Part shown: positions 39,201 through 63,123 of the stretch, piece after piece
Layout of the letters: every line of letters starts with the position of its first letter
Position numbering within the stretch: position 1 is the first letter of the stretch
Assembly: GCA_973895155.1 (NCBI GenBank)
Contig: OZ316891.1
Location: 17,139,651-17,203,650 of the forward strand
Direction: 5' to 3'
Length of the DNA stretch: 64,000 bases
Source of the DNA: Marsupella aquatica
Lineage: Eukaryota; Plantae; Marchantiophyta
Notes under the pieces: generated by a model
What the model saw: the letters and a program-made list of their open reading frames with translations, nothing else
Database searches by the model: none
Told to the model about the DNA's origin: nothing
Program-made: the position numbers and the translations under genes

Positions 39201-40937
39201 GTCCAAAGAAAACTTTTGTGGCAGTGTCAAGAAACTCTTTACGATTTTCAATCCCGACTACAAACCTCCCACAATGATCTCGAGCAACAATGTACTTCCG
39301 GCCCCGACAATCCAGTCCATGACAATATCCCCAGGGAGGGTAATTAATTCTAAAACTGACTGCATGAAACCCACAGGCAGCCTTGAATTCCTAGCAAACG
39401 CAAGCTCCGGCAGAGGATCATTTTTTGGCACGGGAAAACCAATGAGATTGGTTATCGAAGGATCCTCTGTATGTGAAAGAGGGCAAAATTTGGGATCCTT
39501 CGGGACCCTACCTTTGGGCAAAACATGCCCAAAAACATTGAGAGTGAGCGTAAAAATCTGCACATCAAATAACGTTTTGTTCAGAATAAACATCAGATAC
39601 TTCGTCAAGAATATGGAAACCATTCATGAAGAGGATATGCCACACTAGCGCCTGGCGCTAGTGTCACCGTCAATCTCCAAAGGAGGACACAAAACAAAAA
39701 CTCTAGAATAGCTCCACGCGCTATTATATGTACCTGCATATCCGAGCAAGGCCTCTACATTGGAGTGCCCATCACAACATTGTGTGTCGAGATACACTGA
39801 AATTTCTATGAATCTTGACAAGCTGCAATGACTTTAGAGACTTGGTCATAGTCGCCCCTGTGCAAAATCGCTAGCAATCCATCATCCGCTAGGAAAGGAT
39901 CCATTGTTCTGAAGAAGGCACTTGGAATCGTATAATCTTGAAGGTTCCATTTAGGAACCTTCCTATCCACAAGTGTTGGTTTTAACCCAGTCGGAAGATA
40001 TATGAAACCAGCATCAACTCCAAAAGCTCTTTCCTTTCCCCCTCGGACAACCCCTTTTGCTCGATCCCTAGACTTCACCAGCTCTTTCCCCCAACCTTCA
40101 ATATTAGAAACCCAATCCGGCTTTTCTCCCTTGTTAAACAGGGGATCAAAACATCTGTAACACTCGACTCCACAAAACAATGTTGAGTACACTTTTGTTT
40201 GAAATTCTCCACATCTCTCTGCAATCCAGTAGACGCAACTGAATCTCGGGAAGAAGATCCAAGCCTATCATCAAGTGGTCCTCTCTTTTTCTTCTTCTTC
40301 ATACTTGCCGCGTCCACTGGAACCACTGCCTTTCCACTCTCCCCAGGGGTTCCCGAATCTGGTGTATTTTCTGCACCAGTGTTAGCTTCAGAGGCCTGAG
40401 GAGTAGCATCATCTTTTACATCAGCGGTGGCATCCGACTTCCTTCCCCCTGAAAGACAGAGATACGTTACTAAATGGAACTAGTTCTCATAATAGCGCTC
40501 GGCGCTAGTATCAATTGGAGAGAAATATGTCATACGAACAAGAGCGAGAATCCCTTACTGAATCCTATGAGGCATACTTATGTTTTTTAAGAGATCGAGT
40601 TGATTCACTGGGAGCTGCAGATTCATTCTTGGCCTTCACTCTTGGCTTTCGGCTCTGATCAACATGCATGACATCTGTCTCGCATTTCTTCTGCAGCTCA
40701 GTTGTCAACACGTCCACTTCAATCGCAAGACCCTACTTCATTTCCAAGACATACCTTGCTGGGATTTGCAACTTTTGCAACTTCATGAAAGCGTCTTTCT
40801 CCACCTTGTCGAAAGGCAGATCCCATTTGTCAGTGTCTAAATACCATGGGCAGTGGAGTCTCTCCCACTCTAACAAGGCTTGGGGTGGAAAATTTCCCTC
40901 AGTTCGGTACATCGAATACAGATCAACAAGATGGTCA

Positions 40938-40990
40938 CCATCTTTTATCATCACCCATCTTTTATCATCACCCATCTTTTATCATCACCC
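40938..40990. repeat. 3 x 17-bp tandem repeat CCATCTTTTATCATCAC
   Basis: Read directly; sits at the deletion junction of copy A. Confidence 0.9.
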
Positions 40991-41750
40991 ACTGGTCTTG
41001 TGGCATCTTGTGTGTATACCAAGAACCCTTGCGAGTCTTCTTTCAAATGGCTTCAAACTTTGCATAACTTGTAGCATCAATGAGGGGTTTGTAGTGCTCT
41101 AGGTTGCGTGATAAAAGACAAGAGATTTTGTCGGCATCAAGAATCCAAGACGGCTCGACCACAACTTGTCCCAAATTACGTCAAAATCTAAATGGAAATT
41201 AGCAGCGTCGGGCACTAGTAAAACACCAAATATAATATCACATCAAAAACCCATCTTGAACTAGTAAGTCATATTAAATGAGGTTGTCCTGAACAATGAC
41301 TTACTGGTTGACAGCGTGCATGGCAGCCTCGAGCTCCACGAGGGAACCTTTATCTCCATTGAAAACAATGCAAGTCACACGAGGGTGGTACTTAATGTTG
41401 TCCGGATGCTCTGCTGTCACAATCAACCACGAATACAAATGGTGATTTCCATCAAAGACACAAAACATCTTGTCTTTCAAAAATTTGAAATCAAGATCAG
41501 CGTCACACTCTTCCTTGAACTTGTCATTCTTGGCCACCCAAATTGGGTCCCAAGAGGCTCTAATCTCATTAGTGCAAATTTGTGGAACCCCATCCGTATT
41601 TGTTGGCTGTACGTAAAATGGCATGCCCATGCGCGAATTGTATCTAGAAATCCGGAATGACTCCTTCAATTTGTCGATGGAGGCACTTTGCTTCTACAAC
41701 ATCCGCACCACTTCCATATGAATCAATCGACATAGAGGAATTTGTGGAGG

Positions 41751-44700
41751 TGTGACGCCGCCGGTACCGTGGGTAATGAGTGATTCGGCCTAACAATGCT
41801 TAGCACGCGCGTTAGGGGTATCTTAGGCCATAATTATTAGCATAATGATAGTATTTAGGTAGCCATTATGAGTAGGAAATCATTAGTCAATAAGGGGCAT
41901 TCGTGTTCGGGCTGGCGGCGGGTTGCCATCACATGCCCGGGTTGCAAGCGTGTAATGGGCCCTCACCTTTCCCCCTTGGGTCCGTATAACAAAGGCAGAC
42001 ACTGACACGAGCTGACCCGGACCGGCAGAGTGGCCGGGACACTACAAGCGTGAAAGGCTCGGCCTATAAGCGACGAGGAGGCGTCAGGCAATCGACGAGC
42101 TCTCAGGGTATAAAAGGGGGCCAATCCTTTGCACTGCACCAGTTATTCAGTCCACGCGCCAGCTTCGACCCCAGTTCTCTCGCTTATCCTTAGTCGCCTT
42201 CTATCTCCTCTGAATGTTGCACACAATCCTTTCCAGTTTGGCCATACGATTCTGGACGCAGTTCCTGTCTATCGGAGGGCACTTGGCCGACTCATTGAAA
42301 CACGCCAACCCGCGCCAATACAAAATCGAATGCAAATATGAGAGAGCCATCCGCCTAGCAGGCCACCACCACTATCTCCTTAACTTTGATTACCCATCCT
42401 AGAGCAAGCTTTACCGACCCAAAGAGATATCAAGGTACTTCTTCAACAAAGGCAAATATATCGGCTTCTAGGAGGCACTGCTTCGGCTTCCGGACCAGGT
42501 CTTCAATATCCCGGGCACGATCGACTTACAGCGACACCACTTCAACCACATCCCCGCTCGGGTCCGGGACATCATCAACAGCGAGTCCAGCACTACCCAG
42601 TCTACAAGGGCATCTACACTTGCTTCGGAAAACCTCTACCAGCACCTGCAGAATTTCATGGCAACCGTACCATCGACTACCGGTGCCAGCCCAGTCGTGC
42701 CCATGCCCGCACCAGCACCAGCTCAGGCTCAGGCTCCGCCTCAGCCTAGCCAAACCCCACCACTAGTTGCCCCACCCATACAGGTGAGATCCGTTGTCAA
42801 CGCTGTAGATCTCAGCAATGACGAAGGGGCTACGTTACCCCTATTCAGGCGTCCCAAAGGAGCAAACACTCAGGGAGCCGGGACTACATCGCCCCCTCCC
42901 CAGGCCCGGACCCGAGTAACGGCTCCAGCGGACAACATGGTGACCGTAGCCGCTCCGGCCCCAATACTAATGGTGGTGGCACTACCTATACCCGATCGAG
43001 AAGATGGGGAGGTGTCACCCTCCCCGAGCCAGTCTCGGGGAAAGAAGAGGAAGGAACCCACAGCTATATCCGGGTTACCCATGACCACCGTAGCCGCAGC
43101 CAAGGTGACAATGCACCGCATGGGGGAGAACGTGCATAAGAACATCCTCCACCCCAAACATGCGGTGTACTTGAAGACTCAGGGGTTTGAGCACCTTGCC
43201 TCTCTCCCCTGGAACACCTGCAGGTACTACGGGGAGGACATGACATAATTCGTCAAGAATTATGACAACGTCCGTCAACATACTCGGCTGCGGGGGAGGA
43301 ATATGTCCCTCACAGAGGAGCGGCTCAGGATGATATTCGGGCTACCCAAGGGCTCCCGGGGGCAAAGGAGCCAAGTACCAATCCTCGAGTTTTCCCTCCA
43401 AGGGGTCAGTGGACAAGGGGTTCGTGATGAGGACCTGCCTCATCCCCGAGATAGCCGACCGACTGGAGTTCCAGAGGTACGCCCTCCACATGATGGAACC
43501 CCAGGGCGAGATCTCCACTGCCCAAGTTATCCAGGTTGAGAACTATCAACCTAGGAAGTGGGCGTCGTACTTCGCTAAGAAGTTCCATGAAGAGATGGAG
43601 CGGCGAAGGAAGTTGCTATACATCGGTGGGAAGGCGTATTTTGCAAGCCACATCGAGATCATTCTTGAGTGGTACACCCGGTTTGATCGACAAACCCTTC
43701 CCCGGGTCAACGTAACTAAGTTGGTCCCAGCTAGGTGGGTCTTCCCGGCCCTGGACAGACGGCCCCAACCCGAGGCCCAAAGTCTGGCGGCCACGCAGGC
43801 CTCACCCACCCCACCTCCACAAGTAGCCATAGCCATGGCCAAAGTGATACCAGACGAGGCAGTAATCGCAACCTTAAACGCGATCAACCAGGCCGGGCCG
43901 AGCGCAGAATTCAAAGCGGTAGAAAACTTGGCCGAGCCTAAGGGTCCAAAAAATCCACCAATGGCTATTCCGGAGGAAAGGATGATGATGGAGGAGGACA
44001 CTCCAGCCCCTTCCAACACTACATCCCCAGGGTTGGATGTCACTACCCCGGCCCCCGCGCGAGTTGACATCTGCCCGTGCCCAAATCCGCACGGGCATAC
44101 CTGGACCACCCGGAACTCTTCGTACCGGGTACATTTATGAACGGGCTTTTGGGAGATTTCTCCCAAAAGATTGCCCGGGATACCGGGGAGTTCATGGCCC
44201 GGAAGGTAGCCTACTTCTTTAATCAGGAGTTAGTTACCACGGTAAAAGCAGGTCGGGCCCAGTCAAAGGCCCTTTAGAGGATAGAGCGGTACCGGGTTGA
44301 GTCCGTGTTCCTAAAGGACAAAGTTGCGGCTCAAGAGGCTGAGCTTCTGCAACTATGACCCAAGGTTGCAGCCGCCAATGAGTTGTTAGCAAATGCGCAC
44401 GCCCTTACCGCCCTAGCCAAACAGGCCAAAGCTGGGAAGGAGGCCGAGATTGCACGGCTCTGGACCCAGGTTGACAGTTTGAAGAACCAAACTGTCATTT
44501 GGCAAAAAGACCCGGAGGAGGCCAAAGAGCGGGCCCAGCGTGACACTACGGAGATTGCCACCCTGCAGACCGAAGTGGCACAGCTTCAAGCCAAAGCCAA
44601 GAAACAGACCTAGGTGGTGGACAAGTTGACGAGCAACGCCCAACAACTGGAAGAGGCATGCCAGGAGGCAACTGAGGAGACGGACGTGGCAAAGCGAGAG

Positions 44701-45690
44701 AACGAATCTCTACTAGACCAAGTCCAACTCCTCAAGATGGACAACGACAGACTCTGTAGGCAGCGGGATGGCCGCTCCCACTCGGACGGCTTTGGCAAGC
44801 GCACCAGGCATTAGCGGAGGGTTAGGCTTAGAATAGAACTAGGAGTAGCTAAAACAGGCTATTAGGACAAGCGCCAGCCAGAAGATAGCGGCACTAACAC
44901 ATTAGCTAGCCTGTGTAGAATAGATTAGACTAATAGGACAAACCGTAACCAGCTTAACAAGGATATAAGTTAGCGTAGATTCGGGCACGAGGCCAGGCTG
45001 GTCCTCAGCCCTTAGTATTTAGCAGCCCCCCAGTAGAGGCAAGGGGGGATTTTAGACTCAAAAGTTGGCCATTCGCGGTATGCGTGGGGAGTCCCAAACT
45101 CGGTGAAGTACCGGAGTGCCAAGGGGAGGGTATACGACTAAGCTCGTTGGGCGAGTGCGGAGCCGGGCTCCATTGTAGTGTATACTCCTCGACCTTGGGC
45201 CCATGCGTTCACAAGGTGTCGGGTCAACCAATCGTAAGTGTATGATCATAAATGAATGAAATCCTTTCCCCTCAATTCCTTCGTGTAAATCAAGATTTAT
45301 GTTTATGTGTAAATGCATGTATGAGTCTCGTGTGCAAGTATCAATGTCGGGCCAAACACGTTATGCCAAGCATGCACGGGGTGCAGGTTACGGATATGGG
45401 GTTGCAAGCCGGGGTTGAGCACTTGTACTAATGGATCCGGATCGAAGGCGGTAACACAAAGGCTTAGAAGTCCGTAAGCCGGGGTCGACCCCGTGTCAAC
45501 TAAGGTACGTTCCGGCAGAACACAAACTATACCTAGGAGGTGTCTGTACATAACAGTAAACACACTTAGCGCTAGTTTACGTGAGTTAGGAGCATTCCGT
45601 GCGTCCCTCCTTGCCCGAACCCTCATATTTACAAAGGATGTGCCTGTCTAAGCCAAACCCCGGGTTAAGGCCTAGGCTGACGACGTGACA
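41751..45690 (+). mobile_element. 3.9-kb TG..CA element with 5-bp TSD (giant solo-LTR-like)
   Basis: Ends TGTGACGCCG / CGACGTGACA; TSD GGAGG at 41746-41750 and 45691-45695; removing it restores the copy A frame (KEPP-QIPLCRL); TATAAAA at ~42110. Confidence 0.88.
42658..44814 (+). pseudogene. Decayed gene related to 32536-35896 (PMD-like region plus coiled coil)
   Basis: GFEHLASLPW..FVKNY..LTEERLRMIFGLP..KGF, followed by coiled-coil fragments 44077-44814. Confidence 0.6.
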
Positions 45691-47021
45691 GGAGGCTCCT
45701 TCTCCAATCCTCTAAAATCTTTGCCAAAGGACAAGACATGCTTGGATATGTAATCGTCCATTGAAAGTCCAGCAACACCAAAATAAACTTGTGCAACTTC
45801 CTCAATCGTGTCCATTCTCCCCCTTCTTGATTGCGCGGTTGGAAGAGTTGAGCCAATGTCTGAATGTGAATGAGACGCAGCCGACCGAGTCACGCGATGG
45901 GTGTACACAAAACCTAAAAAAGAGGATTGTGAGGACTCGAAATGACCGACATGACTATCTCCCATCCTTGTATTACCCCATTGAGAGATATGGCGATTGC
46001 GTTGAACAAAACGTCAAACAGTATCGTACAACTCTCCTAGAGCCCCTGAGCCAATACGGAGTAACAGACTTAGGTACAAAATGTCACGTTCGAACAGGCT
46101 GCTCCTAGAGAATTACGTATCTCCCATGAGCGCCAAGTCCCCATAGAGGGTTAAGAGATGGAGTCTCTAGCACATTAGAATGTTGCTCAATAGTAACACC
46201 AACAGAGCCGAACACTTGGAAGATTACCATTGGACCAACAATGGTCTTATACTTTGGCAGTGTGATCAGCAATCTTCAATGTTACCGTTAAAATATGACC
46301 GTTGATTGATTTAGCCTTATTGATAGCGCCAAGCGCTAGCAAAAACAACTCTATATTACCCAATTTAAACTACTAATTTCAATAGCGCCGAGCGCCAACA
46401 AATCGACCACATATGTGTTTTTACACAATTCAAATGGATTTCCAGCCTTGAGGGACCAAATGGATGTTATTTAGAACATTTTATCCTTAAAAGTTTATTA
46501 GCGCTCGGCGCTATCATAAATGATATCCAATTCAAAGCTAATCATCACGCAAACATAATACAAACTCATCCATATCCAAAAATATTTTCAGAATTCCACT
46601 GGTACCAGAAGGATAATTTTGAGCATTCCAATGATAGCGCCAAGCGCTAATATGGAATGTGTCACGGGTAAGATCCCTCCATCGAAAACTACATGCATTT
46701 TCAAGACTTCCAAATGACATTTGGTACAAAGATTGACTCATTCCCATAAGATAGAACATCAAAAAACACGAACTGACTCATGCAAACTTCGGCAAGGGGA
46801 TGTCTAAGAGTTTGGAACTCCATTTACGGTCATTGGATTTACTTCACCAAGTCTAGAAACATCAAGTGTACACTTCAAGATTTTTTAAAAACTGGGGAGT
46901 AACCTCCCACTAGATTCCGAGACTACCATGTAGGCAAAAGATTGACTACCATTACTACCATTACTGCAACAACTGGTCGTGGCTGTCAACATCGGACTCC
47001 ACCAAATAGAGTGGGCCCGAC

Positions 47022-47290
47022 CTCCGTGACAAGAAACAGGAAACAGTGATGATCATAACAGGAAAAATAGTTGAACAAAACAGGAGAATTTGTACTATCA
47101 TTGACAAAAAACGGCTTAATTTTGACCCAAACCAAAGAGGTCAAATTCAACATCAACTCAAAAAGATGGGGAAAACGACAATTATCGGAAGATGCCTTTA
47201 CTAGCGCTTAGTCCTAACCAAGCGTTCGATACCGTTACAAAATATCATTAACAAAATACCCGCTCAACATCTACCGGAATGATCAAAGGA
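47022..47290 (+). repeat. Left TIR (~270 bp) of the MULE
   Basis: Inverted homology to 62855-63123; its inner part is duplicated again at ~47555-47635. Confidence 0.72.
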
Positions 47291-50261
47291 TAACGGTTTC
47301 TAAGGCAAGAAAAGGTCATCCTCGAGAATGCATGTGAAAGAAATCCACACGTTCAGACTTGGAAACTACAAACTGAAACCAAGTAAGGAAATGAAGTCTA
47401 GCGCCGGGCGCTAACAAAACTGAAGTCCAAGTGACAAAACTGAAGTCCAAGTGACCCGTACAATGAAATTTACACATCCGTAAAATTGTAAAAACAAATT
47501 TAGTTTTTTGTGCAACCCACAAAACATTGAGCCGTGTTGAAAAGAAACCAAATGTTGTTTACTAGCGCCAGGCGCTAACCAAAACAAGGTTACCGTTACG
47601 AAATGACAAGTCCAACATACCCGTTGAACGTAAACAAGAATACTAAGCCTTCCTATAAACCATCAGCATTATGCCTCGCTAGAATATAACGCAGTTCCGC
47701 AATGGTAAGAATCGGTTGGCTTGGGAGGATATTGTCCACAGGATCAAGCTTGCAGATAACTTTGTAAACCCAGTACAAGTGTTTACATGGCATGAAAGGT
47801 TTCCCTCGAGAATGTCAACGAAAGAAATCTTCACAAGAGCAACAAGGGAAAATGCAAATCTGCACCCAGTAAGTATTTGCAGTTCGTAAATGTGCATGTG
47901 TGCGTATCTGGAATTGTTTTCCGTATGAATTTCCCGATGAAACTTCCATAGTTTTGATCAAAGTCATTGTTTCTTTCGTTGCTGATTCAATCCTTTTATG
48001 ATATTCCTGAGTGAGATTTGATCTGGAGATCATCGCACGCCCGTTTCTTGTTTGAAAATGGATGTTGACTTGTGCAAGATCGATCTTTTCAGGGAAAATG
48101 TCAATGTTGATTCTCAGTTCAAATGGAGAAGGACAACGTGAAATAGCACCTCCTCTCGAGACTTCAATGCCCTGCTCGTGAAGGAAATTCAACTCCAGAC
48201 TTGAAAGATGAGTGCCTTTCTGTACTGGCAAAAAGTCTGGGCAAGTAGGGAGGTTCACAATACCTCGACGAGGGCGGCTCTTCCAGCAATCACGAGTGGG
48301 GCAGAACCAGATAAGCTCTGGATGGTGTTCACCTCTGAATAAGCGGTAACCTTTGATGACTATTCCGACAACCCCTGCATTTGAAGGATATCCGACCTTC
48401 TTAATTCGATTACGACACTCATCTCGATCACAACTTCCAGACAACGTCCCATTACACTGAGGTCCAGCACCGTGTCTGGAAACTCTCCGCAAATGCCACA
48501 ACCTGGGTACAACATCCACTTCAAAAAGCGAAGTGTCTACAAGAATGAATGGAGTGGTGTTCGGAACACTTTCTGGAACTTTGGAAGATTGAGTGACATG
48601 ATGGGAAACTGGAGAGCCACTTTCAGACAAATCGATAACTGGATTCGAAGGAGGAGTTCTAAGTATCGGAATGTGCTCAAACTCGACTGAGGTCAAATTT
48701 CTCCTCTTGCAACCTCGGGTGTTTGGCGTAGTTATGAGAACCGTGTCATGTCAATGGGAGTCTTGTGGAGAGACATTCTCGGTCGCCGGACCTTTTCTTT
48801 TCATAGACTTCGTCACAAAATCCCCATTCAACGGAGAATCCCTCTCCAAATCAAATTCTGCTGCATTTGCGAGTAACATATTAGAGGCTTCTTTGAAGAG
48901 TTTTGGGGACCCTGCTTGGTCAGCTGAACGAAAAGCCAATTCAAACACTGTTGGACCGGTACCCCGATGGAGCCCTTCACGATATGCTATATAGGCTGCT
49001 ATTTGTGAGATTGCTCTGTTGTGATCGGTCTTACATCCTTCGAACAAACCAACTGTTTTCTTTCCCTGCCATGCTTTCATGATTCCGTGAACAGCTTCAG
49101 AACCAGTGCAATTGGGAATCATCCCCCCTTCAAGTGCACTTTTGCTCTGAAAAAGAGTTTTGTCAAATTCAGTACAATATAGCGAATAAAAATAAAGTGG
49201 AACTTCAAAATGGGCGGACGAAAGGTATGAATGTTTTCATGATTATTGTGAAGATTGAAGAAGCTATCAAGCTATTCGTACGTTAGCGCCCGGCGCTGGC
49301 AAAAACATCAATAAATATCACAAGTAGAAAAGGGATATTAATACTAGCTGTAGTTTGCTATGAAGAACCAAAAACACACTTAAAGGTCTTCAAACTCGGT
49401 ATTCGTTCCCATAAAGAACAAGATGGGGTTGGTTTGATAGATTTAATCAATAATAAAGAACTAAAAATGTTTTCCACACATAGTAATCAAGTTTGATTAC
49501 TTTAATAAGGTACTTTGAAGATCGCTCCACAGCGGTGAGTGGTTTTCAATGACAACTCAGCATCATGTAACCATAAATTAATGAAAAGGGAATGATTAAC
49601 AAAATACAAGGAAAATAATCTCAAAGTATGCTAAGGGAGTCTGGAATTGACCAAGGTTGCTCCTTAGACATAAGTCAAAATGAAAAGACTTAAGGATTCA
49701 AATCCACGTTTGCTTTTCAGATCTAAAATGCTTACTAGAGTACCTTTTAAAATGCCGTAAACATGTCTTATCCTTTCTTTCTAAGTGGTACTCAGATTAA
49801 ATCTAAAAGGTAGCTACTTCAACATTTAGATGGTACTAAGCAACATGAAAGAAAATCCATCAATTCCAATAAGACTTAAACTCAATGAGTTAACTTTAAG
49901 AACTCAGGAGATTGCAATGAATCACCAAAAAGGAATCTATCATCACAAGATCCAAAGATTTCTTACAAATGGATTTTACTTCTTGTGTTTATAATCAGAG
50001 GTAAAAACACAAGAAGGAGGTAAGTCTCTCCAAATGTTAAACCTAATCTCGAACTCATAGATTCATGATCAATGGGTTTAACACAAGGTAGAGGCAAAAA
50101 TGCAAAACTTAACCATACTTCTACACTAGTGGTGGAGGGGTCTTATAGTAAAAACCTACAGGGTAAGAGGTCATAGGGTCGAAGAGACATGCCTCTTCAT
50201 ACTCCTCAAAAAGTCAAAACAGCGATTCAGTAAGTGAAAAGCCGGAAAATGGCTAAGTAAG

Positions 50262-50325
50262 AACCCGTAAAAGCGTAAAAGCGTAAAGACGTAATCGCGT
50301 AAAAGCGTAAAAACATAAAGGCATA
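50262..50325. repeat. CGTAA-core minisatellite (7-8-bp period)
   Basis: ccgtaaaagcgtaaaagcgtaaagacgtaatcgcgtaaaagcgtaaaa. Confidence 0.85.
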
Positions 50326-52972: not shown

Positions 52973-53139
52973 AGCTGCAATGGTGATTTGCGTGCTGCGA
53001 AGGTTGCTTTCGAAGAGAAAGAGCAAGTGAATAGGGGTGGTGAAAATACAGGAGTGAGCGCCTGAACTCTGTGCTTGATTCCTATCAAGGTATGAAGTCC
53101 CCAATTTGTTTCTAAGTCCCGTTGCAAAGTTAGTCGTAG

Positions 53140-53265
53140 CGCCGTAACGTGAACTTTCCTTAAACGCGTAAGGCGTAAGCCGTAATCCCGTATTGGCGTA
53201 AACTCGTAACAGCGTAAACCCGTAAACCCGTAATGCTCTTATGCGTAAATGCGTAATCCCGTTAT
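53140..53265. repeat. CGTAA-core minisatellite (7-8-bp period)
   Basis: gcgtaaggcgtaagccgtaatcccgtattggcgtaaactcgtaacagcgtaaacccgtaaacccgtaa... Confidence 0.85.
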
Positions 53266-56200
53266 AAAGTATATCCATAGTTTACACTTGGCATTTTAAC
53301 AGCAACAGCAGGCTTAAATACTGTAAAAAGTTTAAATTTTTCAGTAATTTCAGGTTTTTGATATTACCCAATACTCACACTAGCGCCAGGCGCTAGTATA
53401 CATTGACTCACCAAAGTATGAAATTTCCCCACTGATGCCACCTCACAACCCACCAAGCGATCCATCTTTGCAACATTCTAAGTTTCCCAGGAATACAATT
53501 TCCAGATCTCCACGATGAATCAATCTCTCGTGATACCCTGTAGGCTTCCACAAATGAAGCGGCATTCCGCAACTTGTCCCAAAGGATTCGATGTTCAACA
53601 CGTTTTTCGTCAAGTACTCCTTCGATAGAGTGCCGATGCAAAGACTGATAAAAGTGGAATGCATCCGATCGCTCTCTCTCCTGGTTTGGATGGCAGTCAA
53701 AGAAGACATTCCTAACCGCTATCCATCCCGCCTGAGCGTTATCCGCCATGAAACCATGGATTTCCACACCGTTTAAACCGTTCTCCAAAGCGACTTTGAT
53801 CATCAACCTCCAAGCTTTCTCAAGCGATGCAGTGTCCTCTGCTTTGAGTTCACAAGTAAATATTGTGCACAAAGCTCGATAGTTATGGTCATACACATGT
53901 GCACTAAAAGTACTCCATTCTTTTGACATCCTTTTCATCACGTCAAAGCTCACCCATGCTCCTTCTAGAGGCCCCCCTTTCTTCATCTGACGCAGTAAAT
54001 CTACTCCCGATCCATGACCTTTGATAGTCATTTTGAAAATATGCGCTCTATCACCTTTACAACCCTGCCCAGGAAGAAGATATCTTTGGAGAAAAGGAAA
54101 CGTAACATTCTTCTGCATGCGAACCAGATATTCCAAATCACCTCGACCAACCTGATCTTTGCGAACGCTCTTAAATAACGCAAAAACTTCTGAGGCGTTG
54201 AAACGAGCATAAGTGATTTCCAGATTTCTGATTCTTCTAGCTTTGAAATGTCATCCACAGACTCACCTACGGCATCCATTAAAGATCCAGTGATCTCATT
54301 TTTCAAAACGCACGGTGTAGAAGAAGGAGACTTCTCATGTTGTCTCCGTATTTCTTCTATTGCTATTTTCTCAGCACTTCTAGACCAGACCTTCCGACAT
54401 GGATGGTTGTGCACTCCCATATGGATTGCAAGTCATGACATGTGTTTTGCAGTGTCATTTTTGATCAAAACTTGCGGGTACATATAAAACATTTTTGCTG
54501 GACAAGACTCAACACAAAATGGAACTTGAAGGCAATAGCAACAAACAATTCCTCCAGCATCGATAAACCTCCCAGGACAATGCTGACCAGAGAGCTTGGG
54601 GGTCCCATCCCATCCATTACAGTTTCTAACTTGAGTCCTGGTGTAAAACTCACATGCTCTATTTTGGCATTCGAGAGAACCACTACAGCTTACTTTCCCA
54701 AACTCCCACATCTTCTTCGGAACGACATTAGCAGAAGTAGGAAGGATTCTAGTCCAGAGGTAGCAGTCCTTGCATCGATCCATGTTTCGCAGACGATCCC
54801 CTTTCGAGCCAACACCTTCAACAGGTGGAAGCTCAAATATGGTATTCCCATTGTACTCTATAGGTAAGCATTCAACCTGTTTGTGAATGAATGCCTTGGA
54901 CCTAACAAAGCGCAATAACTCACTTTGTCCAGTTGACTTCAACAAGGCATCAAGTGCGCTTCTTCTCTACACAACCAGAACAGGACGAGTTAGAGTGTCT
55001 CCATCATCAGACTTCTCCGACGCAATCAATACGGGGAGTACCTGGGGCGTCAACAAATTGGTACTTCCGCCCTCCTTATTGACCTCACCGCCCTTTGAGA
55101 TTGGTGGAGAACCCTCAGAGCATTCAGCGTCGGACGTAAGGTCAATGACATCGTGAGCGACCTGATGCGTCTCCACCTTGACATGAACGATGTCCCTTAG
55201 TTGAATGAAAATCAAGTACTCCACGCCATATTCGAGATTCCAAACAACGTCCTCCGCTTCAGTATCAAAATGAGCGGGCCCATCGTTCAAAGTTCTGATA
55301 CTCAAAATATGTTTTCTCGTCACCCCAAATCTTCCACACAGGTAATTATCACTAACACGTTTCTTGGTTTTGAAAATCGACACAGGGATCGTCACAACGT
55401 CACCTGTATTCGGACACGTTATTCCAATAATGCGAGACATTCTAACTCCCCAAAGATAACCGACTACATAAAATAATGATACATTGTAAAATGAAACTAG
55501 TTTGGATGGTTGAGGGTTTCTTCTAAATCCAAGTCTCAAACGGAAAGAGCCGTCGAGCGGTTATAGGATCCGTTGGGTACGGATTTTCTTACCATTCAAG
55601 AAACGACAAAACCATAAATTCGGCGGATAGTTACTGTTGAATTAATGGTTTTGACATTGTAACCAAAGGGGTAATATAGTAGCGCCAGGCGCTAGCATTT
55701 TCCACATCTGAAAGAGCCCAAAAAATGAACAACAAAAGCAAAGATCATCGGCCATTTTGGTTACTGACACAGGTTAACATTCTACGATAGGTTTCGGGTT
55801 TCCTTGGAAATATATCGGGTTTCCATGGAAATAGCCCCTTATTTATGTCAGACGACAATATTACCCTCTGCTTATATTAAAATCGATCCATTTGAGATCG
55901 AGTAGAAGCTATCACAATAATAGCGCCAGGCGCTATCATAAAATTTCTTTAAAATGTCAAGATGTACTCGTACATTATTTATAGAAACTTACACATTTCG
56001 TGTCCAAACATCTACCATTTTGAGGTGTCTCGTTACTAGCGCCGAGCGCTATTATTGAAATCTACACATTTGTTCCCTATTTGAGACTAAAAGAAAAATA
56101 GCGCCTGGCACTTTCATATACTTTATAGAAATAGAAGCCGTTTATTACAAAATCTTTCTCGCTTTAGTCCAATCATTCGCATGATTTTTTAGTACAATGT

Positions 56201-56673
56201 TACTAGCGCCAGGCGCTATTATTAAAATCCTTCATTTTAAGATATATTTTAGTCTAGCATAATAATAGCGCCAGGCGCTAATATTAGATCGAAGTAGAAT
56301 AATGACATAAACGGTCTTTTTAAATGGTAACTTTGACCATTTATCGTTACAATTTATAACGAATTCCTGGATAAATATATTCACGAGTACCTATAAACTA
56401 GTTAAAATGTGACAAGTGTCAACCTTTAGTAGGTCTGCTTTTGGATGCTCATGCTTTTCGATGTGTACTTGTGATACATGTCGGTCTGCCACAGGGTATA
56501 TCAGATAAGATCTTTTCGCGATAGTATCTTTCTTGATCGTTAGAACGACCTTTGCGCACGTTTAGGATCGTTGTCAATCATTTGTCCATATCGGTATAGC
56601 ACCACAAGAAACGTTGCATCACGCAAGAAGCACGTTGAGGTGCGGGTTCCCCGTGTGTGCATCTTAAACAGAC

Positions 56674-59600
56674 ATGGAAAATCATTCTCCTGGCCATTCT
56701 GAAACATCCGAGTCCTCATTCTCCGGATCAATTTATACTCGGAGAGTCACTCGTTCGTCTGCATCGAACTCTTTGCGAAACATTAGTCAGTCGATTCCAA
56801 AGCCAAAATGAGGCATCATGGAGTCATACGGAGATTTTGCGATGGAGGACGGTGGCGAGGGAGTCCTGTCCATGGATGCTGTGATCAAGAAATATGCAAT
56901 GTCATTTGGAGTCGATTTCAGAGGGGAGAAGAAAGAGCCGCCGCGTATCCCTCTTTGTCGGCTTATTCACATGGAAATCGTTTGGACTTTATAGAAAAAT
57001 AGTGCATCTATCGATAAGCTCAAGGATTTGTTTTGGAGCTCTGGGTACAACTCTTCAATTGGGATGCGGTTTAACGTCCAGCCCACGGATTCAGAAGGAG
57101 TCGTTCAATTCTGCACGCCTGAAATTTGGGAGACATGGGATGCTGTTTCGGTTGCCCAGAATGACTTGTTTGAAGCAGAATGTGCTACTGATCCAGATTT
57201 CCACATTGTGAAGGATAAGATGTTCTGTGTTTTTGACGGGAATCATCGACTCTACTCGTGGACCCAAGTAACAAATGAGAATCCAGACAATATCAAGTAC
57301 CATTCGCGTGTTCAATGCACTGTTTTTAAGGGAGATCGGGGTTCTCTAGTTGAGCTTGAAGCGGCTATGCACACGGTGAACCAGTAAGTATTCCTCAAGT
57401 TGCATAAACGCTATTGAGTTTGGTCAATTGCGCTTGATTTTTGCAAAGTTAGTTACGGCCAGGCGCTAATATTTGCCATTATACCTTACAGGTTAGGGCA
57501 AGCTGTGGTGGAACCATCGTGGATTCTCGATGCCGATAGAATCAATCGGATTTTAACTCATGACTTGGAGGCCTACAAGCCGATCATCGACCCCGGAAGC
57601 TTCAAGTGATTTCAAACTGTTCATGCCAAAACAAGAAAGGGGTCTTGGTATACCAAGCAGATGCCATTGGAAGCATTGGTTTACATCTTGTGTGAAAACA
57701 AGATTAAGTCGTATTCACTTCAATTTAAGCTTGACTTGGCTGCTGCAAAAAATCAAGGTCGTCCGTGGTCATCTGAAGAGACTGGTAAGCGGTATGCTGC
57801 CATGATGAAGGAGGCAACGAAGGAGTGGAGCATAAAGACATCCAAGATTACCCCCTGATAAGCCCAGAGTTTGGTGATTTTTTGTCAACTTGTGCAAAAA
57901 TGTACATTCTTACGGAGAGGAACAAACGAGAAAAGAAGCCGGACTCTGTAGTATGTACAATAGACTGCGCGCGTCTATTCACTACTGTCTCCTACTTGGA
58001 TCCACAATTGCACTGTACTCTTCTTGTTGCTCACTGTACACCCGAGCTCAGAAAACAATTTTACCATCCCCCGAGTGTGAATGATGACCCTGTTAAACAG
58101 TGGTGTCATACATGGCACATGTGGAGTTTGGTGGAAGGAATTGCAATTGCAATGTTACAGACATCTCTTTCGCAAGTCCAGTCGATCCTACCTGCTGATC
58201 GTCTGACACTAGGAGGAGTGGAGACGTTTGAAGCTTTGGTCTTGAACATCACCAATGATTTCAAGACATACGGTGAAACAGTGAAGGCAAAGTTTTTTAG
58301 CACAATTTGGCAGTCCAAGTACGGAGACAAGGAAGACTATACCATTCGCAACCAGAAGCGAGCCAAGAGATATCTGTATCGCTTCTACATGGCGATGGAG
58401 ACCAGTTCTCCAAAGTATTTTTGGGCTTACCCTCTTGCATTCCAAAAATGGTCCGTTCTAGAGGGGGATGCTTTTAGCAAAGTTTACTCAATGTACCCTG
58501 CCGAAGGGGACGTTCCACCATGTGACATTTCATTGTGGGAGATAACCCACTGTCCATGGTATCTTGACACAGATAAGTGGGACACCCTTTCAATGAAGCT
58601 GAAAAGGATGCATTTCTGAAATTATCAAAGTCTTTAGTCCCTCGGAAAGTTCTGTCTGAAATGAAACAAGGTTTATCGGAAGATGTAGATGCCTCGGCGA
58701 GCGAGCTGCAGAAACATTGCGAAACAGAAGTTTTGCATGTAGACAGGAGTCGAAAACCCCGGGCAAAAGCAAAACTAGACACTGGAGTAACCAGCCCATC
58801 AACGAGATCCAGGAAGAAACGTGAGATTCTTCTATTTTTCATCGGCATTCCGTATTTCCCTTCACTAGTTTGGATATTTAGGTGTCTTTTTGTTTAGCGC
58901 CACAGATGTTGGTGTCCATTTATTTCTTGATTTTTGTGCAGTTTGGTTAGCGCCCGGCGTTGGTGTTATTTTCCATTGGCATTCTGTATTTTCTCTCCAC
59001 CAACTTGATTATGCCAGTGACTTTTGAGGAGCGCTGCAGATCAAGTTGTCTATTTATCGGTTGATTTTTTGGGCAGTTTGGTTAGCGCCCGGCGCTGGTG
59101 TTATGTGGACCGTAATCTTGGAAACTTTTGTTTCTTTTTCTAGGTGGACGGAAATCGGATGGAGAAGAAACACAAGATGCAAAGACGAAAATCACTCCTG
59201 GAGTCTCTAAAGCTGATACGGAGGAACAAGATGTCCCTGATGAACAGACTCCTCCCAACACGGAGAAGATGGTGCGACCTGCAGATGCCACCAACACGAA
59301 GAAAAAGAAAAAGAAATCTTTGGATCATGGATTTTCCTCTCGGGATTCAGTCGCTTCTACTGGTGTTCAACGAGATGTTGGACAGTTCAAGTCTAAGACT
59401 TCTAGGCATGTTTTTGTTGAGTCCAGCGTAATGGACTTCTTTGAGAGTGTGTTCACGAAAGAGCAGAAACCGGCTTGGGTGTCAAATGTGGAGAAGTGGG
59501 TGAAAGACCTAGTCTTGCTTGGTCTAAGGGAGAAAGGAGTCATAAGAGGAGGGAAGATAAGATCATTTGGAGTTGATGTTGGATTCGTTTACCTCCCAAC

Positions 59601-61023
59601 TGGACTGCGCCCATCCCTTTTAGAGAAGAAGTCTCCAAAATGGAATTCCCCAGATCACAGAATTGTTGGTTCATTCTTTCGCGCAATGGACCCCTTTCTA
59701 GCAGATGATGGTATATTGGCCATTTTGCATACCGGCGAGTATGATCAGATCTCGCAGGTCATCGCCGCGAGCCAGGAGTCTCAAAAGTTTCAGTGTGTGA
59801 AAACCCTGAACGTGGTTATGGGAGTTCCAATGTACATGGCCCGAAGTGATTGCTAGGTAAATTCTCTCACTCTTCGTGCTGTCCTTTGTTAGCGCCGAGC
59901 GCTAGCTAAAAATGTTTTCATATACCTTTCGGTTAAGGGGATATTCTTTGTTAGCGCCTGGCGCTATCCAAAATTCATTGTTATGCCGTGATTTAAATGA
60001 TTTTCTGGTTGGATCGTCGACATCTTAACAATGGACTTTGTTGGGATTTCACAGGTTTTCACATTGAGATTGGATCTGTTCAGTCGTGTTTCGTCAAAGG
60101 TTAAAGTTCCAAAGGACCCCAAGTTTCGACCCCTCTTTGCAACTGAAGATCCTTCTATGACTAACCTTATTGGTCTCCCAAGTGTGAGGAAGGATCCAAC
60201 TCCTTCAGCAGCGTTTGCTGGCAATGGACGCTTGTCCGTTGGGTTCATGCAATCTGTGTTAGAGTTAATCACTCGGCCGGGTGACATTGTCATGGACTGG
60301 ACTGTGGGTTCAAGAAGTACATTTGTTGCTGGTGACTATTGTGGTCATTTTATTCTTGGTATAGAAAACCGAAAAGAGTTTGTTGAGATTGCGGAAAAGA
60401 CATGGATGGATTTATTGATTCCAAAGGATGTCAGTTCCTCATCTCCCGCTAAAGATGTGGGAAGAAAACAAAAAGATAAAGTTCGCTCTGTCTTAAATTT
60501 TGACTCTGAAGATGAAGAGGATGGAGATGCTGTTGGAGATGATGCTTCAGGAGGACAAGGAGAGGAAAATGAAGGAGACGAGAAGGAGAGGCATACGATG
60601 AAAGAAACAAAAGATTTGGATTCTTCTGAGTAATGCCCGTAAGCTACTTCACTTTACATTATCGATTCTGTTACTGTCCCATTTTCATTTTCAACTCTAA
60701 TATGGTTCCGTTCCTCTTCCAGATCGGAGTGGAATCTTCAAGAACGTTTTAATCTTAGGAGGAAATACTCGAGAAAAGTTCTCGTTTCTCCTCAGAAGCC
60801 TTTTGTGTTGCCCTCGTATGCAGAATATGCTGCACGCAAAGAAGAATAGAGGAGAACACTTACTTGGGAGAGTAAGGGCTTAAGGTTAAGAAGAGGTTCA
60901 GATAGGAAATTCATCCACCAGCCTTTACTCAACGATGGACCTAGAAGCAAATTTATAGATGATGAAGCTGAGTCTACAGATAGGTCTGGCAGTAGCGAGT
61001 CCGAGTCTTCTGACTTGGAATAG
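56674..61023 (+). pseudogene. ParB/Sulfiredoxin-like plus N6/N4 DNA-methyltransferase-like fusion gene, copy B (5 predicted exons, several nonsense changes)
   Basis: ParB-like: IPLCRL..IDKLKDLF..GY..MFCVFDGNHRLYSW. MTase-like: VDVGFVYLPTG, FFRAMDPFLADDGILAI, LITRPGDIVMDWTVGSRSTFVAGDYCGHFILGIENRKEFVEIAEK. GT-AG introns at about 57384-57491, 58821-59143, 59857-60054 and 60630-60722. Confidence 0.78.
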
Positions 61024-61320
61024 GTTGAGTGGGAATTTCTAAGGTTTTCTTTAGAACCTTGTACTAGCGCCCGACGCTATTAAACAGGGTGTTCGGATCT
61101 GAGACTTTAAAGGAGATAGACGCACCAGGAGTCTCTTTCCTGAGTGCATATTTGTGTAGATATCAGAAATGCATGTACTCGTATAGTTGTACGGTGAATA
61201 ATTATACCTTCAGTCTGTACGTATTTTTGTTTGTGGTTGATATGATCGTTTGGACTCTCTCAAAGTGTAGTGCGTGTTTGTTCAACTTCATGATTGTTCA
61301 ACCCTAAACTCATTTCTCCC

Positions 61321-61436
61321 TTTCATTTCTGTTAGGCGCTGACTCTCCTCTTCCTTTTGTTTCATTTTTGCACTGCCCAGACTCACCTCTTCCCTTCGTT
61401 TCATTTCTGGTCTGCCCGGACTCACCTCTTCTCTTC
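61321..61436. repeat. ~39-bp tandem repeat, about 3 copies, pyrimidine-rich
   Basis: tttcattt...gactc(t/a)cctcttc repeated. Confidence 0.75.
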
Positions 61437-61472
61437 TCCCTGAGTTTTGCATCCGTTGTTTCCATCGACTCA

Positions 61473-62072
61473 ATGGATAAGGGAAAGCAAATAGCGAAAT
61501 CGAAGAGCTGCAATCCGCCAAAGGTGATGGTTTGGAGGTCAATTAGAGATCCAGGTTTAGATTTGACTCCATCTTTTACGCAGTGCCCAGAGACGTCGAC
61601 CGAGAGGAACAAGTTGTGGCTGGCCCCGGATGAGGGTATTAGCCACAAAATTGGACACCTTCCATCGCGTGATCCTTCGCCTCCACTTCCTTTCCGAGAG
61701 AGGTTCTCTGTTCACGACCCGGATCCTTCCAATGTGTATCGGGTGGAAAGGACAGCTTTTTTCAGAGACATCCAAGCAGACACCGGACGTGTGAACTTTT
61801 CAGATTCGAACATCCCGAACGACCGGAGTCGGAGTCGCTATCCCGGACCTCGTTTTTTTCTGGATCGAGAGGATGGGTTTCGACAGGATGAGGATAGGTT
61901 CAAAGCTGGATTGGACGACGACTGCATGTGGGCATCACCACCGAGACAGGAAACAGGAAAACAGGATTACTGGTACCAGCAAAAGGTTTCCTGTTACCAG
62001 GAAAATTTTACTATTACCAGTAAAAAACACGATCTAAAAATGTACCATTTAAAGTCTTATTTTTCAGAATAA
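61473..62072 (+). CDS. Hypothetical ~200-aa ORF inside the MULE (MDKGKQIAKS...)
   Basis: Uninterrupted ORF with an ATG after a pyrimidine-rich leader; no family recognised. Confidence 0.35.
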   Translation: MDKGKQIAKSKSCNPPKVMVWRSIRDPGLDLTPSFTQCPETSTERNKLWLAPDEGISHKIGHLPSRDPSPPLPFRERFSVHDPDPSNVYRVERTAFFRDIQADTGRVNFSDSNIPNDRSRSRYPGPRFFLDREDGFRQDEDRFKAGLDDDCMWASPPRQETGKQDYWYQQKVSCYQENFTITSKKHDLKMYHLKSYFSE

Positions 62073-62854
62073 TTAAAATCATGGGTTTTTTTTGCGAGCG
62101 CCAAGCGCTGCTATTGTTAGCTCCGGGCGCTAGCAATATGATGATGACAAACCAAAACCAAAAAAACTTTTTTTCCCCAAAAAAACATTTTCCAAAAAAA
62201 ATCCAAAAAAAAAATCCAAAAAAATTACCACTCACTTTCCTGTTACTGTTTCCTGTCGTTTGTAAATACCCCACTGCATGTCTTCTACTTCCTAGAGAGT
62301 GTGGATTTCTTCTTCGACACTAGCGCCGGGCGCTAGCTTTCATCTCATCTTTGGAGTCGTTCATGAGTTTGATTCATGTCATCTTTTTGAATGGGGGCTC
62401 CGGTTCGTCCGAGTTAGCTTTATTCCTTCCATTTTATTATCACATTAGGTTTTTTGAGTATGTTATTAGGGTTATTTCTTTTTCTCGAAGGTTATGGACT
62501 TTTATTACCTTCTGGATATCAATGTAATTTCTTTTTCAAGTAGCGCCTGTTGCTAGCGCTTGGCGCTACTATTATATGTTCCATTCTCCTCCACAATTAT
62601 GTAAACCCGCCTCTATAAAATTGTGTCTTTCATCTCTCTTTTTTCTAGTGTCCTCCAAATATGTTGCGAATACTATTAGTGGCTCTTTTATTGTTGAAAT
62701 TGGTTGTTTCCTGTTACTGGAATTGGGTTCCTGTCAAATGGAAAGCCCTCTGACAAAACGATCTTTAAGCTTCATCCGATGTATTCGGTCTTACCGAGCC
62801 AGCCAGTTTTGAATGTCGGAGAACTCTAGTTCATCGTAGGAAGGGAGAATCTGC

Positions 62855-63123
62855 ATGGTTCATTCGACGATACGTTGAACGGACATTTTGTTAATGTTGT
62901 TTTGAACGGCAACAAACTCTTGGTTAGCGCTCGGCGCTAGTAAAACTTGTCTTTCCATAATTACTGTAGAGAACGCTAAACATATTGGAGTTCCTATTGA
63001 AATTGGCCTCCTTGTTTGTCCAAAATTATGTCATCTTTTGTGTATGCTAGTACCAAATCTCCTGTTTTGTTCCTCTCTTTTTCCTGTTATGATTGTTATT
63101 GTTTTTTGTTTCCTGTCACGGGG
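62855..63123 (-). repeat. Right TIR (~270 bp) of the MULE
   Basis: Inverted homology to 47022-47290; contains a palindrome copy at 62925. Confidence 0.72.

What the first reader, a model, noticed from the sequence alone, without database searches (positions are those of the whole stretch)
39646..63123. Candidate ParB/parS-like system in a plant Mutator-like transposon: ParB-MTase gene plus ~30 cognate 15-bp palindromes
Seen: 18 exact and ~13 near-exact copies of TAGCGC-YNR-GCGCTA. They lie in non-coding DNA of the ParB-MTase-bearing elements: introns 1-3 of both gene copies, the divergent promoter 55680-56280, upstream of copy A, the transposase intron and 3' flank, and the TIRs. I saw none in 1-39 kb, inside the nested elements or in the exons of these genes. 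The CpG-containing arms stay largely intact while neighbouring exons have collected CGA>TGA and CAG>TAG stops, and variation is concentrated in the 3-bp spacer, as expected for a dimeric protein's site. Known: bacterial ParB is a CTP-dependent clamp that loads at 16-bp palindromic parS sites and spreads; Arabidopsis VANDAL MULEs encode VANC anti-silencing proteins that bind motif arrays in their own non-coding DNA. Inference: the element encodes a protein that recognises or loads at its own palindromes and coats or marks the element (anti-silencing, self-marking or transpososome assembly). Alternative: the sites bind the GCM-like domain of the transposase.
Basis: partly seen in the sequence, partly recalled or inferred. 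Interest (0 to 1): 0.92.

Follow-up and report, generated by a model that had tools for sequence, protein, structure and literature searches.

The report
Plant transposon with ParB-type palindromes
A decayed jumping gene, likely from a plant, carries about 30 copies of one 15-letter palindrome in its non-coding DNA and a second gene predicted to have the folds of bacterial ParB and of a DNA methyltransferase, which likely grips those palindromes to keep the element active; a similar design was proposed for seaweed transposons in 2025, with no test in the passages read.

Summary
TAGCGC-N3-GCGCTA occurs 18 times exactly, plus 13 degenerate copies, at 39.6-62.9 kb; shuffles give 0.02. All sites lie in non-coding DNA of one Mutator-like family. 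Two cargo-gene copies are saturated at synonymous sites (pS 0.77), yet introns 1-3 of both keep the site; in introns 1 and 3 it is their best shared stretch. A liverwort homolog folds as a ParB/Srx domain plus helical domain (KorB Z 7.5) and a beta-class N6/N4 methyltransferase (CcrM Z 14.6) whose catalytic motif is degenerate. A relative carries a different palindrome array in the same intron. Best reading: the cargo protein binds the palindromes and shields or activates its element; binding, dimerisation, CTP use and genome-wide distribution are untested. The idea is in print for algae: ParB-like PAG3 with inverted-repeat arrays (Bostrychia) and a ParB-MTase fusion in Sola1-1 (Ectocarpus). 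New here: a land-plant Mutator host, dispersed polar sites, likely dead catalytic motif. New variant of a known kind; interest 0.6.

The parts
47013..63132 (.). Element B: Mutator-like DNA transposon, transposase and cargo gene divergent, imperfect inverted ends
   Evidence: Inverted similarity 47024-47268 / 62874-63121, 73%; termini resemble those of the TSD-flanked MITE; no TSD found; whole stretch covered by many divergent contigs in 4 of 4 runs
47013..47270 (+). Left inverted end of B with ACAGGAAA repeats and degenerate palindrome 47202
62874..63132 (-). Right inverted end of B with ACAGGAAA repeats and palindrome 62925
47692..55446 (-). Broken transposase gene: exon 1 55446-53414 (Cys/His-rich N-terminal part, D..D..DxFH), exon 2 49128-47692 (E, SWIM-like end)
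   Evidence: tblastn of relatives P0187/P0189/P0191; alignment; 14 homologs; SWIM only E 0.17
49349..53379 (.). 4,031-bp TG...CA insertion in the transposase intron, 5-bp duplication CTAGC that is the left arm of palindrome 53381; no sites inside
   Evidence: joint 49342-53379 in 3 of 4 runs
55460..56670 (.). Divergent promoter with six palindromes (55680, 55921, 56037, 56099, 56204, 56266); CpG o/e 1.23 with sites masked
56674..61023 (+). Cargo gene B (pseudogene): ParB/Srx-like domain (exon 1), helical domain (exon 2), beta-class MTase-like domain (exons 3-4); introns 57384-57491, 58821-59143, 59857-60054 hold sites 57454; 58948, 59083; 59890, 59952
   Evidence: collinear with Riccia P0154; PF01555 E 1e-5; folds of homologs; stops and frameshifts
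61065..61079 (.). Palindrome just 3' of the cargo stop codon
61930..62272 (.). 343-bp non-coding MITE of the same family, 9-bp TSD, with two degenerate palindromes (62096, 62118)
   Evidence: TSD and termini; empty site seen as joint 61920-62273 in 3 of 4 runs
62321..62568 (.). Subterminal palindromes 62321, 62541, 62554
38690..46100 (-). Cargo gene copy A (pseudogene), 63-67% amino-acid identity to B in three blocks; introns hold sites 41203; 40493; 39709, 39646
41751..45690 (.). 3,940-bp TG...CA insertion in exon 1 of copy A, 5-bp duplication GGAGG; no sites inside
46324..46649 (.). Four palindromes upstream of copy A (46324, 46383, 46499, 46635)
47399..47577 (.). Two exact palindromes in the transposase 3' flank (47399, 47563)
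49284..53395 (.). Pair of palindromes in the transposase intron (49284, 53381), 61 bp apart before the insertion

Best explanation
This is a decayed Mutator-like DNA transposon family, likely of a plant, whose non-coding DNA holds about 30 copies of one 15-bp palindrome, and whose cargo gene is predicted to encode a ParB-fold DNA-binding protein that likely docks on those palindromes to shield or switch on its own element. Shown: the sites, their confinement to non-coding DNA of this family in the window, their survival in introns of two copies whose synonymous sites are saturated, and purifying selection on the cargo gene. Predicted from models of a liverwort homolog: N-terminal ParB/Srx domain, helical domain partly superimposable on the KorB DNA-binding part, C-terminal beta-class methyltransferase fold. 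Inferred: a dimer reads the two TAGCGC arms; occupancy of promoter, introns and ends counters host silencing as VANC does for VANDAL; the methyltransferase domain, with DLP[ST]G in relatives and YLPTG here, likely acts as a DNA-binding or base-flipping module rather than as an ordinary N6A/N4C enzyme; the separate ACAGGAAA repeats at the ends likely serve the transposase. Whether a nucleotide closes a sliding clamp is open.
For: 24 sites at <=1 mismatch vs 0.02 expected. A vs B: pS 0.77, dN 0.27 over 392 codons; best local match of intron 3 is the 15-mer alone, of intron 1 the site plus its 3' flank. 0 of 435 site pairs share >=60% of ungapped flanks. Top 6 of 48,161 chains are all ParB/Srx fold; KorB Z 7.5, rmsd 6.1, 184 aligned over model residues 26-390; 9 of the top 10 Foldseek ranks are Noc/ParB, E 0.36-2.5. 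G 140 of 147, R 117 of 145 in GNHR. MTase fold: CcrM Z 14.6, rmsd 3.5, 185 aligned; Foldseek E 1e-9. Relative L001 (59% identity) has 11 copies of another palindrome, RGCTT-N6-AAGCY, in the same intron (0.03 expected), absent from the window. A second motif is confined to the ends. B promoter CpG o/e 1.23 with sites masked, above all 1.2-kb windows of 1-38.6 kb (max 0.92). Sites sit in introns, intergenic and terminal DNA as VANC21 targets do (PMC5735166, passages).
Against: No binding data of any kind. ParB Z of 7.5 is under the tool's caution line of 8, and Foldseek gave no E <= 0.001; models are of Riccia homologs, not of the window's broken proteins. No genome was held, so sites outside the family could not be counted. 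Intron 2 of A and B share no site-centred alignment. Only 1 of 4 plant-like loci showed an array: L003 (about 270 bp upstream, 100 bp of intron) and the degenerate L004/L005 showed none. Copy A's promoter is CpG-poor (0.49). The MITE, which has no gene to de-silence, keeps two degenerate sites, which fits a role in transposition as well. A Mutator transposase alone binds its motif and activates cognate copies (bioRxiv 10.64898/2026.08.24.746577, section 7). Linkage of cargo and transposase was seen only in element B.
Confidence: 0.42

Rival explanations
1. The cargo protein binds the palindromes but serves transposition mechanics: it loads, bridges or compacts the 12-16 kb element so that the transposase can pair the ends.
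For: Sites lie in both ends and in a gene-less MITE; pairs 59-63 bp apart recur six times; ParB-fold proteins bridge and spread on DNA (recalled; intro of 10.1101/2025.10.10.680097).
Against: Most sites are in promoter and introns, far from the ends; both MITE sites are degenerate; helical phasing is weak (p 0.014 for 16 spacings, 0.12 for the 13 distinct ones).
Confidence: 0.2
2. The palindromes are bound by the transposase's Cys/His-rich (WRKY/GCM-like) domain, which activates its own family; the ParB-MTase gene has another target.
For: AtMu1 transposase binds a motif and de-methylates cognate copies; MULE transposases carry WRKY-GCM1 domains (PMC1702500, passages); sites flank the transposase gene and lie in both ends.
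Against: AtMu1 peaks were at TIRs, whereas these sites crowd the cargo gene's own introns; a separate end-restricted repeat exists; in algae inverted-repeat arrays follow the ParB-like gene across different transposase types.
Confidence: 0.18
3. The sites recruit a host transcription factor or form hairpins that aid splicing or promoter opening; no element protein reads them.
For: Each site folds as a 6-bp hairpin (z -2.1 to -3.1 in 4 of 4 tested); the polar spacer is odd for a symmetric dimer.
Against: Stems stop at 6 bp: 23 of 30 sites have no extra flank pair, and the arm sequence, not just pairing, is kept; a relative uses a different palindrome; no Rfam match.
Confidence: 0.12
4. The cargo is an active methyltransferase that writes 6mA or 4mC at or near the palindromes as a self mark.
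For: Beta-class fold and a SAM-binding motif are kept; proposed for Ectocarpus Sola1-1 (PMC12477816); liverwort 4mC enzymes exist (10.1101/2021.02.12.428880).
Against: None of 20 relative sequences with a readable motif IV has [DNS]PP[YFW]; both window copies have Y at the D position.
Confidence: 0.05
5. The array is a by-product of local duplication or gene conversion with no function.
For: A few sites are duplicates (58948/59083; 56037/56204; the two ends) and L001's array is tandem.
Against: Flanks unrelated for most pairs; sites kept at matching introns across saturated divergence.
Confidence: 0.03

Closest known systems
Sola1-1_Ec32 accessory gene of Ectocarpus (PMC12477816; passages read; supplements not read)
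   Same: DNA transposon with a second gene on the strand opposite to the transposase; about 1,100 aa; ParB-like domain plus N4C/N6A-type methyltransferase; proposed to bind and modify its own element.
   Different: Brown alga, Sola host; here a Mutator-like host with liverwort and fern relatives. The passages read name no binding site and do not discuss the catalytic motif. Sequence homology to this protein was not tested.
PAG2/PAG3 of red-algal Plavaka, Mutator and Zisupton elements (10.1101/2025.02.11.637652; section 8 and passages read; supplements closed)
   Same: ParB-like accessory protein (best HHpred hit 7BNR, also among my Foldseek rows), PF01555 methylase on the element, inverted-repeat arrays beside the ParB-like gene, self-binding proposed.
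   Different: There ParB is fused to a 2OG oxygenase and the methylase to SET in a separate gene; repeats are tandem arrays beside the gene; here one fusion and single sites dispersed through introns, promoter and ends.
VANDAL/VANC of Arabidopsis (PMC5735166; passages read)
   Same: Mutator-like element with an accessory protein and family-specific motifs in introns, intergenic and terminal DNA; motifs differ between families.
   Different: VANC motifs are 8-9 bp, non-palindromic as written and tandem; VANC binding and anti-silencing are shown by experiment; no sign here that the cargo is a VANC homolog (no such Pfam hit).
Bacterial ParB/Noc/KorB with parS/NBS/OB sites (structures 8qa8, 7ol9, 6sdk, 7bm8; 10.1101/2025.10.10.680097 passages and section 7)
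   Same: ParB/Srx fold, GxxR Box II, following helical domain, palindromic site of like length (site lengths recalled).
   Different: No parA gene; Box III divergent; long helical inserts; methyltransferase in place of the C-terminal dimer domain; eukaryotic introns.
Phage ParB-N6/N4-methyltransferase fusions (PMC4738411 passages)
   Same: Same domain order; PHROG methyltransferase hits E 7e-9.
   Different: About 500 residues of helical domain between the two; degenerate motif IV; no close phage or bacterial relative found.
DUF3723 (PF12520), conserved Starship cargo (10.1101/2021.12.13.472469 passages)
   Same: Best ESM Atlas look-alike of residues 1-480 (0.97, 197 of 256 features; DUF3723 on 22-99% of members of the top three clusters); also carried by mobile DNA.
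   Different: A lead only: no alignment, no Pfam DUF3723 hit on any of 27 + 11 proteins scanned.

Membership tests
ParB/Srx superfamily fold | ParB/Srx N-terminal fold | tested here: met
   Top 6 VIA rows all of this fold, Z 7.5-4.8; 9 of top 10 Foldseek ranks, E > 0.3; model pLDDT mostly > 85 there. Homolog model; moderate scores.
ParB/Srx superfamily fold | Box II GxxR motif | tested here: met
   G 140 of 147, N 144 of 147, H 135 of 147, R 117 of 145; B has DGNHR, broken copy A has DGNHH.
Canonical ParB/parS (ParABS) system | Box III acidic residue before the Asn (consensus recalled) | tested here: not met
   Asn 105 of 108, preceded by L/I/V/M; alignment to ParB by eye.
Canonical ParB/parS (ParABS) system | Central HTH DNA-binding domain | tested here: inconclusive
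   KorB alignment runs to model residue 390 at rmsd 6.1; SopB 155-272 Z 4.0; no separate fold of this part.
Canonical ParB/parS (ParABS) system | Partner ParA ATPase gene | tested here: not met
   No ParA-like hit among 52 window ORF pieces.
Canonical ParB/parS (ParABS) system | CTP binding, clamp closure and spreading from the site | not testable with these tools
   Nucleotide choice is not predictable from sequence.
Canonical ParB/parS (ParABS) system | Homodimer | not tested
Beta-class N6A/N4C DNA methyltransferases (PF01555) | Permuted Rossmann fold, motif IV before motif I | tested here: met
   CcrM Z 14.6, MboIIA 13.9, N4CMT 13.0; PF01555 E 1e-5, 26.0 bits against cut-off 26.7 in the window, 31.7 in P0158.
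Beta-class N6A/N4C DNA methyltransferases (PF01555) | Catalytic [DNSH]PP[YFW] motif | tested here: not met
   DLPSG 8, DMPTG 4, DLPTG 3, DMPSG 2, three others; YLPTG in both window copies.
Mutator-like elements (MULE) | DDE transposase with D..D..[C/D]xxH..E and SWIM | tested here: inconclusive
   Pattern conserved in 14 relatives by inspection; no MULE or GCM library hit, SWIM E 0.17.
Mutator-like elements (MULE) | G-starting long TIRs and 9-bp TSD (recalled) | tested here: inconclusive
   Met by the nested MITE (9-bp TSD, GGG ends); B has matching ends but no TSD.
VANDAL/VANC anti-silencing system | Family-specific motifs in non-coding DNA of the element | tested here: met
   31 of 31 sites non-coding; another motif in L001.
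VANDAL/VANC anti-silencing system | Accessory protein homologous to VANC | tested here: inconclusive
   No direct comparison; folds point to ParB and MTase.
VANDAL/VANC anti-silencing system | [quoted passage not shown] | not testable with these tools
   Only a proxy: CpG o/e 1.23 at B's promoter, 0.49 at A's.
Algal transposon ParB-like accessory proteins (PAG3, Sola1-1_Ec32 type) | ParB-like domain fused to a DNA-modifying fold on a DDE transposon, with inverted repeats nearby | tested here: met
Algal transposon ParB-like accessory proteins (PAG3, Sola1-1_Ec32 type) | Common ancestry with the algal proteins | not tested
   Algal sequences were not in hand; 15 cargo clusters looked up gave 13 names, all Riccia or Adiantum.

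The most novel reading that the evidence does not exclude
Land-plant Mutator elements carry a true nucleotide-gated ParB clamp: it loads at element-specific 15-bp sites, slides over the whole transposon and strips or blocks host silencing, site and protein co-evolving per subfamily; the fungal Starship cargo DUF3723 is the same kind of protein, so a bacterial centromere device became a pan-eukaryotic transposon self-recognition module.
Probability: 0.15. Interest if true: 0.9.

Novelty: new variant of a known kind. Interest (0 to 1): 0.6.

Why it matters
Two 2025 papers proposed that algal transposons carry ParB-like proteins that bind and modify their own DNA; the passages read give no test and no defined site. 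This window supplies a precise candidate site, evidence that it was kept under selection, a relative with a different site, and near full-length protein homologs in a sequenced liverwort, so one DAP-seq or EMSA experiment can test the idea. If true it adds a second, independently built anti-silencing or self-recognition system to plant Mutators beside VANC, may explain a conserved Starship cargo, and would give a site-loaded DNA-coating tool for plant chromatin.

Tried and rejected
No genome held, so no genome-wide map. No RNA holder listed among 6 runs: no evidence on expression. Per-base conservation of sites across family copies could not be obtained; one search lists only 40 of 3,052 differing places. 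Complex prediction: not available, no verdict. Pfam, NCBIfam, PHROGs and PDB sequence searches give no ParB hit and no MULE/GCM hit; absence there is no evidence. Metagenome scan: 7 loci, of which L001, L003, L004, L005 are relatives, L002 an AT-rich short match, L006 and L007 chance matches on inspection of L006 and the same-sequence L008. Viral scan by protein 1 locus and genome scan 1 locus, both off-frame chance matches. Viral scan by motif: 85 stretches, 80 listed, no array; one contig with two sites 1.3 kb apart. Helical phasing weak. 'CpG arms intact' rejected as strong evidence. No TSD for B. No Rfam family. Relation to Marchantia DN4MT1 rejected at the motif level: TSPPY there, D/YLP[ST]G here. 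Paper searches that found no land-plant report: (open-access library only; Iyer 2011, cited as ref 50 in PMC12477816, not read; bioRxiv supplements closed, and Supplemental Table 6 of the Bostrychia preprint may bear on Mutator-borne cases).
Full report
1. Observation. The 15-mer TAGCGC-N3-GCGCTA is in the window as described: 18 exact, 6 one-mismatch and 6 two-mismatch copies between 39,646 and 62,939, and one three-mismatch copy at 41,203. The first 38.6 kb hold one two-mismatch match only. Dinucleotide shuffles give 0.02 matches at up to one mismatch against 24 seen. Among spacer lengths 0-10 only 3 occurs. The mismatch counts 18/6/6/1 fall off the wrong way for chance (0/0/1/8 in the left part). 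The spacer is polar: 29 of 31 read CRR or its complement YYG, and all 10 sites that changed one inner base did so on the polar side (p about 0.002 if independent). A few sites are duplicates of each other (58948/59083, 56037/56204, the two ends), but 0 of 435 pairs share 60% of their ungapped 50 flanking bases (median 34%).

2. Anatomy. Element B runs from about 47,013 to 63,132. Its ends are 73% alike over 250 bp and have no target-site duplication. A 343-bp non-coding element at 61,930-62,272 has ends of the same kind, a perfect 9-bp duplication, and is absent in other copies (joint in 3 of 4 runs). B holds a broken transposase gene on the minus strand (55,446-53,414 and 49,128-47,692) whose 14 relatives keep D, D, DxFH/CxxH and Cys/His clusters, with the E and the SWIM-like end seen in the two full-length ones. 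I file it as Mutator-like by inspection; Pfam and PDB give no MULE or GCM hit. Facing away from it is the cargo gene (56,674-61,023), collinear with the 1,207-aa Riccia sorocarpa protein P0154. A second cargo copy, A, lies on the minus strand at 46,100-38,690. Two 4-kb TG...CA insertions with 5-bp duplications interrupt A and the transposase intron; they hold no site. Every site lies in an intron, promoter, 3' flank, end or the MITE. A second motif, ACAGGAAA, has 9 of its 10 exact copies in 38-64 kb in the ends of B and the MITE. Contigs of 4 of 4 runs cover the stretch at 80-100% likeness, so the family has many copies.

3. Selection on the sites. The stronger test is A against B. Over 392 codons synonymous sites are saturated (pS 0.77) while dN is 0.27, so the copies are old and the protein was conserved. 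Yet introns 1, 2 and 3 of both carry the site; for intron 3 the best local DNA alignment is the 15-mer itself, with a second site 62-63 bp away in both; for intron 1 it is the site and its 3' flank; for intron 2 it is an unrelated 10-mer. A relative from a metagenome contig, L001 (59% identical in the ParB-like exon), has intron 1 at the same place, filled with another palindrome, RGCTT-N6-AAGCY (11 copies, 0.03 expected), alternating with AAGCY-N4-RGCTT; that motif is absent from the window and the window's from L001. Three other related loci (L003 short; L004/L005 degenerate) showed no array. B's promoter keeps CpG (o/e 1.23 with sites masked; maximum 0.92 in 1.2-kb windows of the left part) but A's does not (0.49).

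4. The cargo protein. A profile of the two exon-1 pieces finds 184 proteins; the 13 named clusters among 15 looked up are from Riccia and Adiantum. An AlphaFold2 model of P0156 (81-sequence alignment) matches the ParB/Srx fold: the top six of 48,161 chains are KorB (Z 7.5, rmsd 6.1, 184 aligned, residues 26-390), PadC, Pnob8 ParB, sulfiredoxin, SerK and Atu1540, and 9 of the top 10 Foldseek ranks are Noc or ParB at E 0.36-2.5. Scores are modest; the agreement of ranks carries the case. GNHR is conserved; the residue before the later invariant Asn is hydrophobic, unlike the acidic residue of canonical ParB (consensus recalled). The C-terminal domain is a beta-class amino-methyltransferase fold (CcrM Z 14.6; E 1e-9), but motif IV is DLP[ST]G-like in 20 of 20 readable relatives and YLPTG in both window copies, not [DNSH]PP[YFW]. 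The ESM Atlas places residues 1-480 nearest fungal DUF3723 (0.97), a conserved Starship cargo: a lead.

5. Mechanism. Most likely (0.42) the cargo protein binds the palindromes and shields or activates the element, working like VANC on VANDAL, whose motifs also sit in introns, intergenic and terminal DNA and differ between families (PMC5735166, passages). The same binder with a mechanical role in transposition (0.20) is favoured by sites in the MITE and recurring 60-bp pairs, though phasing is weak. The transposase as binder (0.18) has a precedent in AtMu1 (section 7 read). A host factor or hairpin (0.12), an active methyl mark (0.05) and a by-product (0.03) fit worse. No binding, dimer, nucleotide or methylation step is shown; nucleotide choice cannot be read from sequence.

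6. Prior art. The Bostrychia preprint (section 8 read) reports ParB-like PAG3 with tandem inverted repeats and a PF01555 gene on red-algal transposons, Mutators included, and proposes self-binding. PMC12477816 (passages; reached through an earlier scan note) reports a 1,104-aa ParB-like plus N4C/N6A methyltransferase gene in Ectocarpus Sola1-1, opposite the transposase. Phage ParB-N6/N4 fusions are common. Five searches of the open library found no land-plant report. Earlier scan notes describe like arrangements in fungi, protists and animals (51 notes, 8 shown, unchecked); they are leads, not support.

7. Verdict. Real feature, new variant of a recently proposed kind: not a canonical ParABS system (no parA, Box III divergent) and probably not an ordinary methyltransferase, but it may work like ParB on parS and like VANC. 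Interest 0.6; 0.9 if a nucleotide-gated clamp is shown (probability 0.15).

Noticed in passing
window 77-4031: A SET-domain ORF (PF00856, E 3e-6) lies just upstream of CACTA/EnSpm transposase pieces (Transposase_21, DUF4218, DUF4216) on the same strand: possibly a SET-carrying CACTA element.
   Followed up: no
window 5409-7938: Broken ORFs with DUF7869 (E 4e-26), likely another DNA transposon.
   Followed up: no
window 10300-38270: Nested LINE pieces (DUF4283, endonuclease, RT, zf-RVT) and a Copia element 20509-26917 with 135-bp, 99% identical terminal repeats.
   Followed up: no
window 63133-63804: NIF/FCP1-like phosphatase ORF (PF03031, E 6e-9) begins at the right end of element B; its relation to element A is unclear.
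   Followed up: no
window 49344-49348 / 53380-53384: The 4-kb TG...CA insertion landed exactly on the left arm of a palindrome, duplicating CTAGC.
   Followed up: partly
window 46660-46678: A stretch resembling the family terminus, 28 bp beyond the last site upstream of copy A; A may be a transposase-less derivative.
   Followed up: partly
window 50258-50337 and 53181-53265: Two arrays of an 8-bp CGTAA-core repeat inside the 4-kb insertion, around two ORFs (322 and 473 aa) without Pfam hits.
   Followed up: no
window 61308-62069: 254-aa open frame between cargo stop and right end, no family hit, interrupted by the MITE; possible third gene.
   Followed up: no
window 39646-59952: Site pairs 59-63 bp apart recur six times; contig joints in other copies give 57-62 bp as well.
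   Followed up: partly
L001:335-1152: Intron 1 of a related cargo gene is an 818-bp array with 44 of the locus's 51 AAGCY/RGCTT half-sites, sharing the AGC...GCT core with the window's site.
   Followed up: yes
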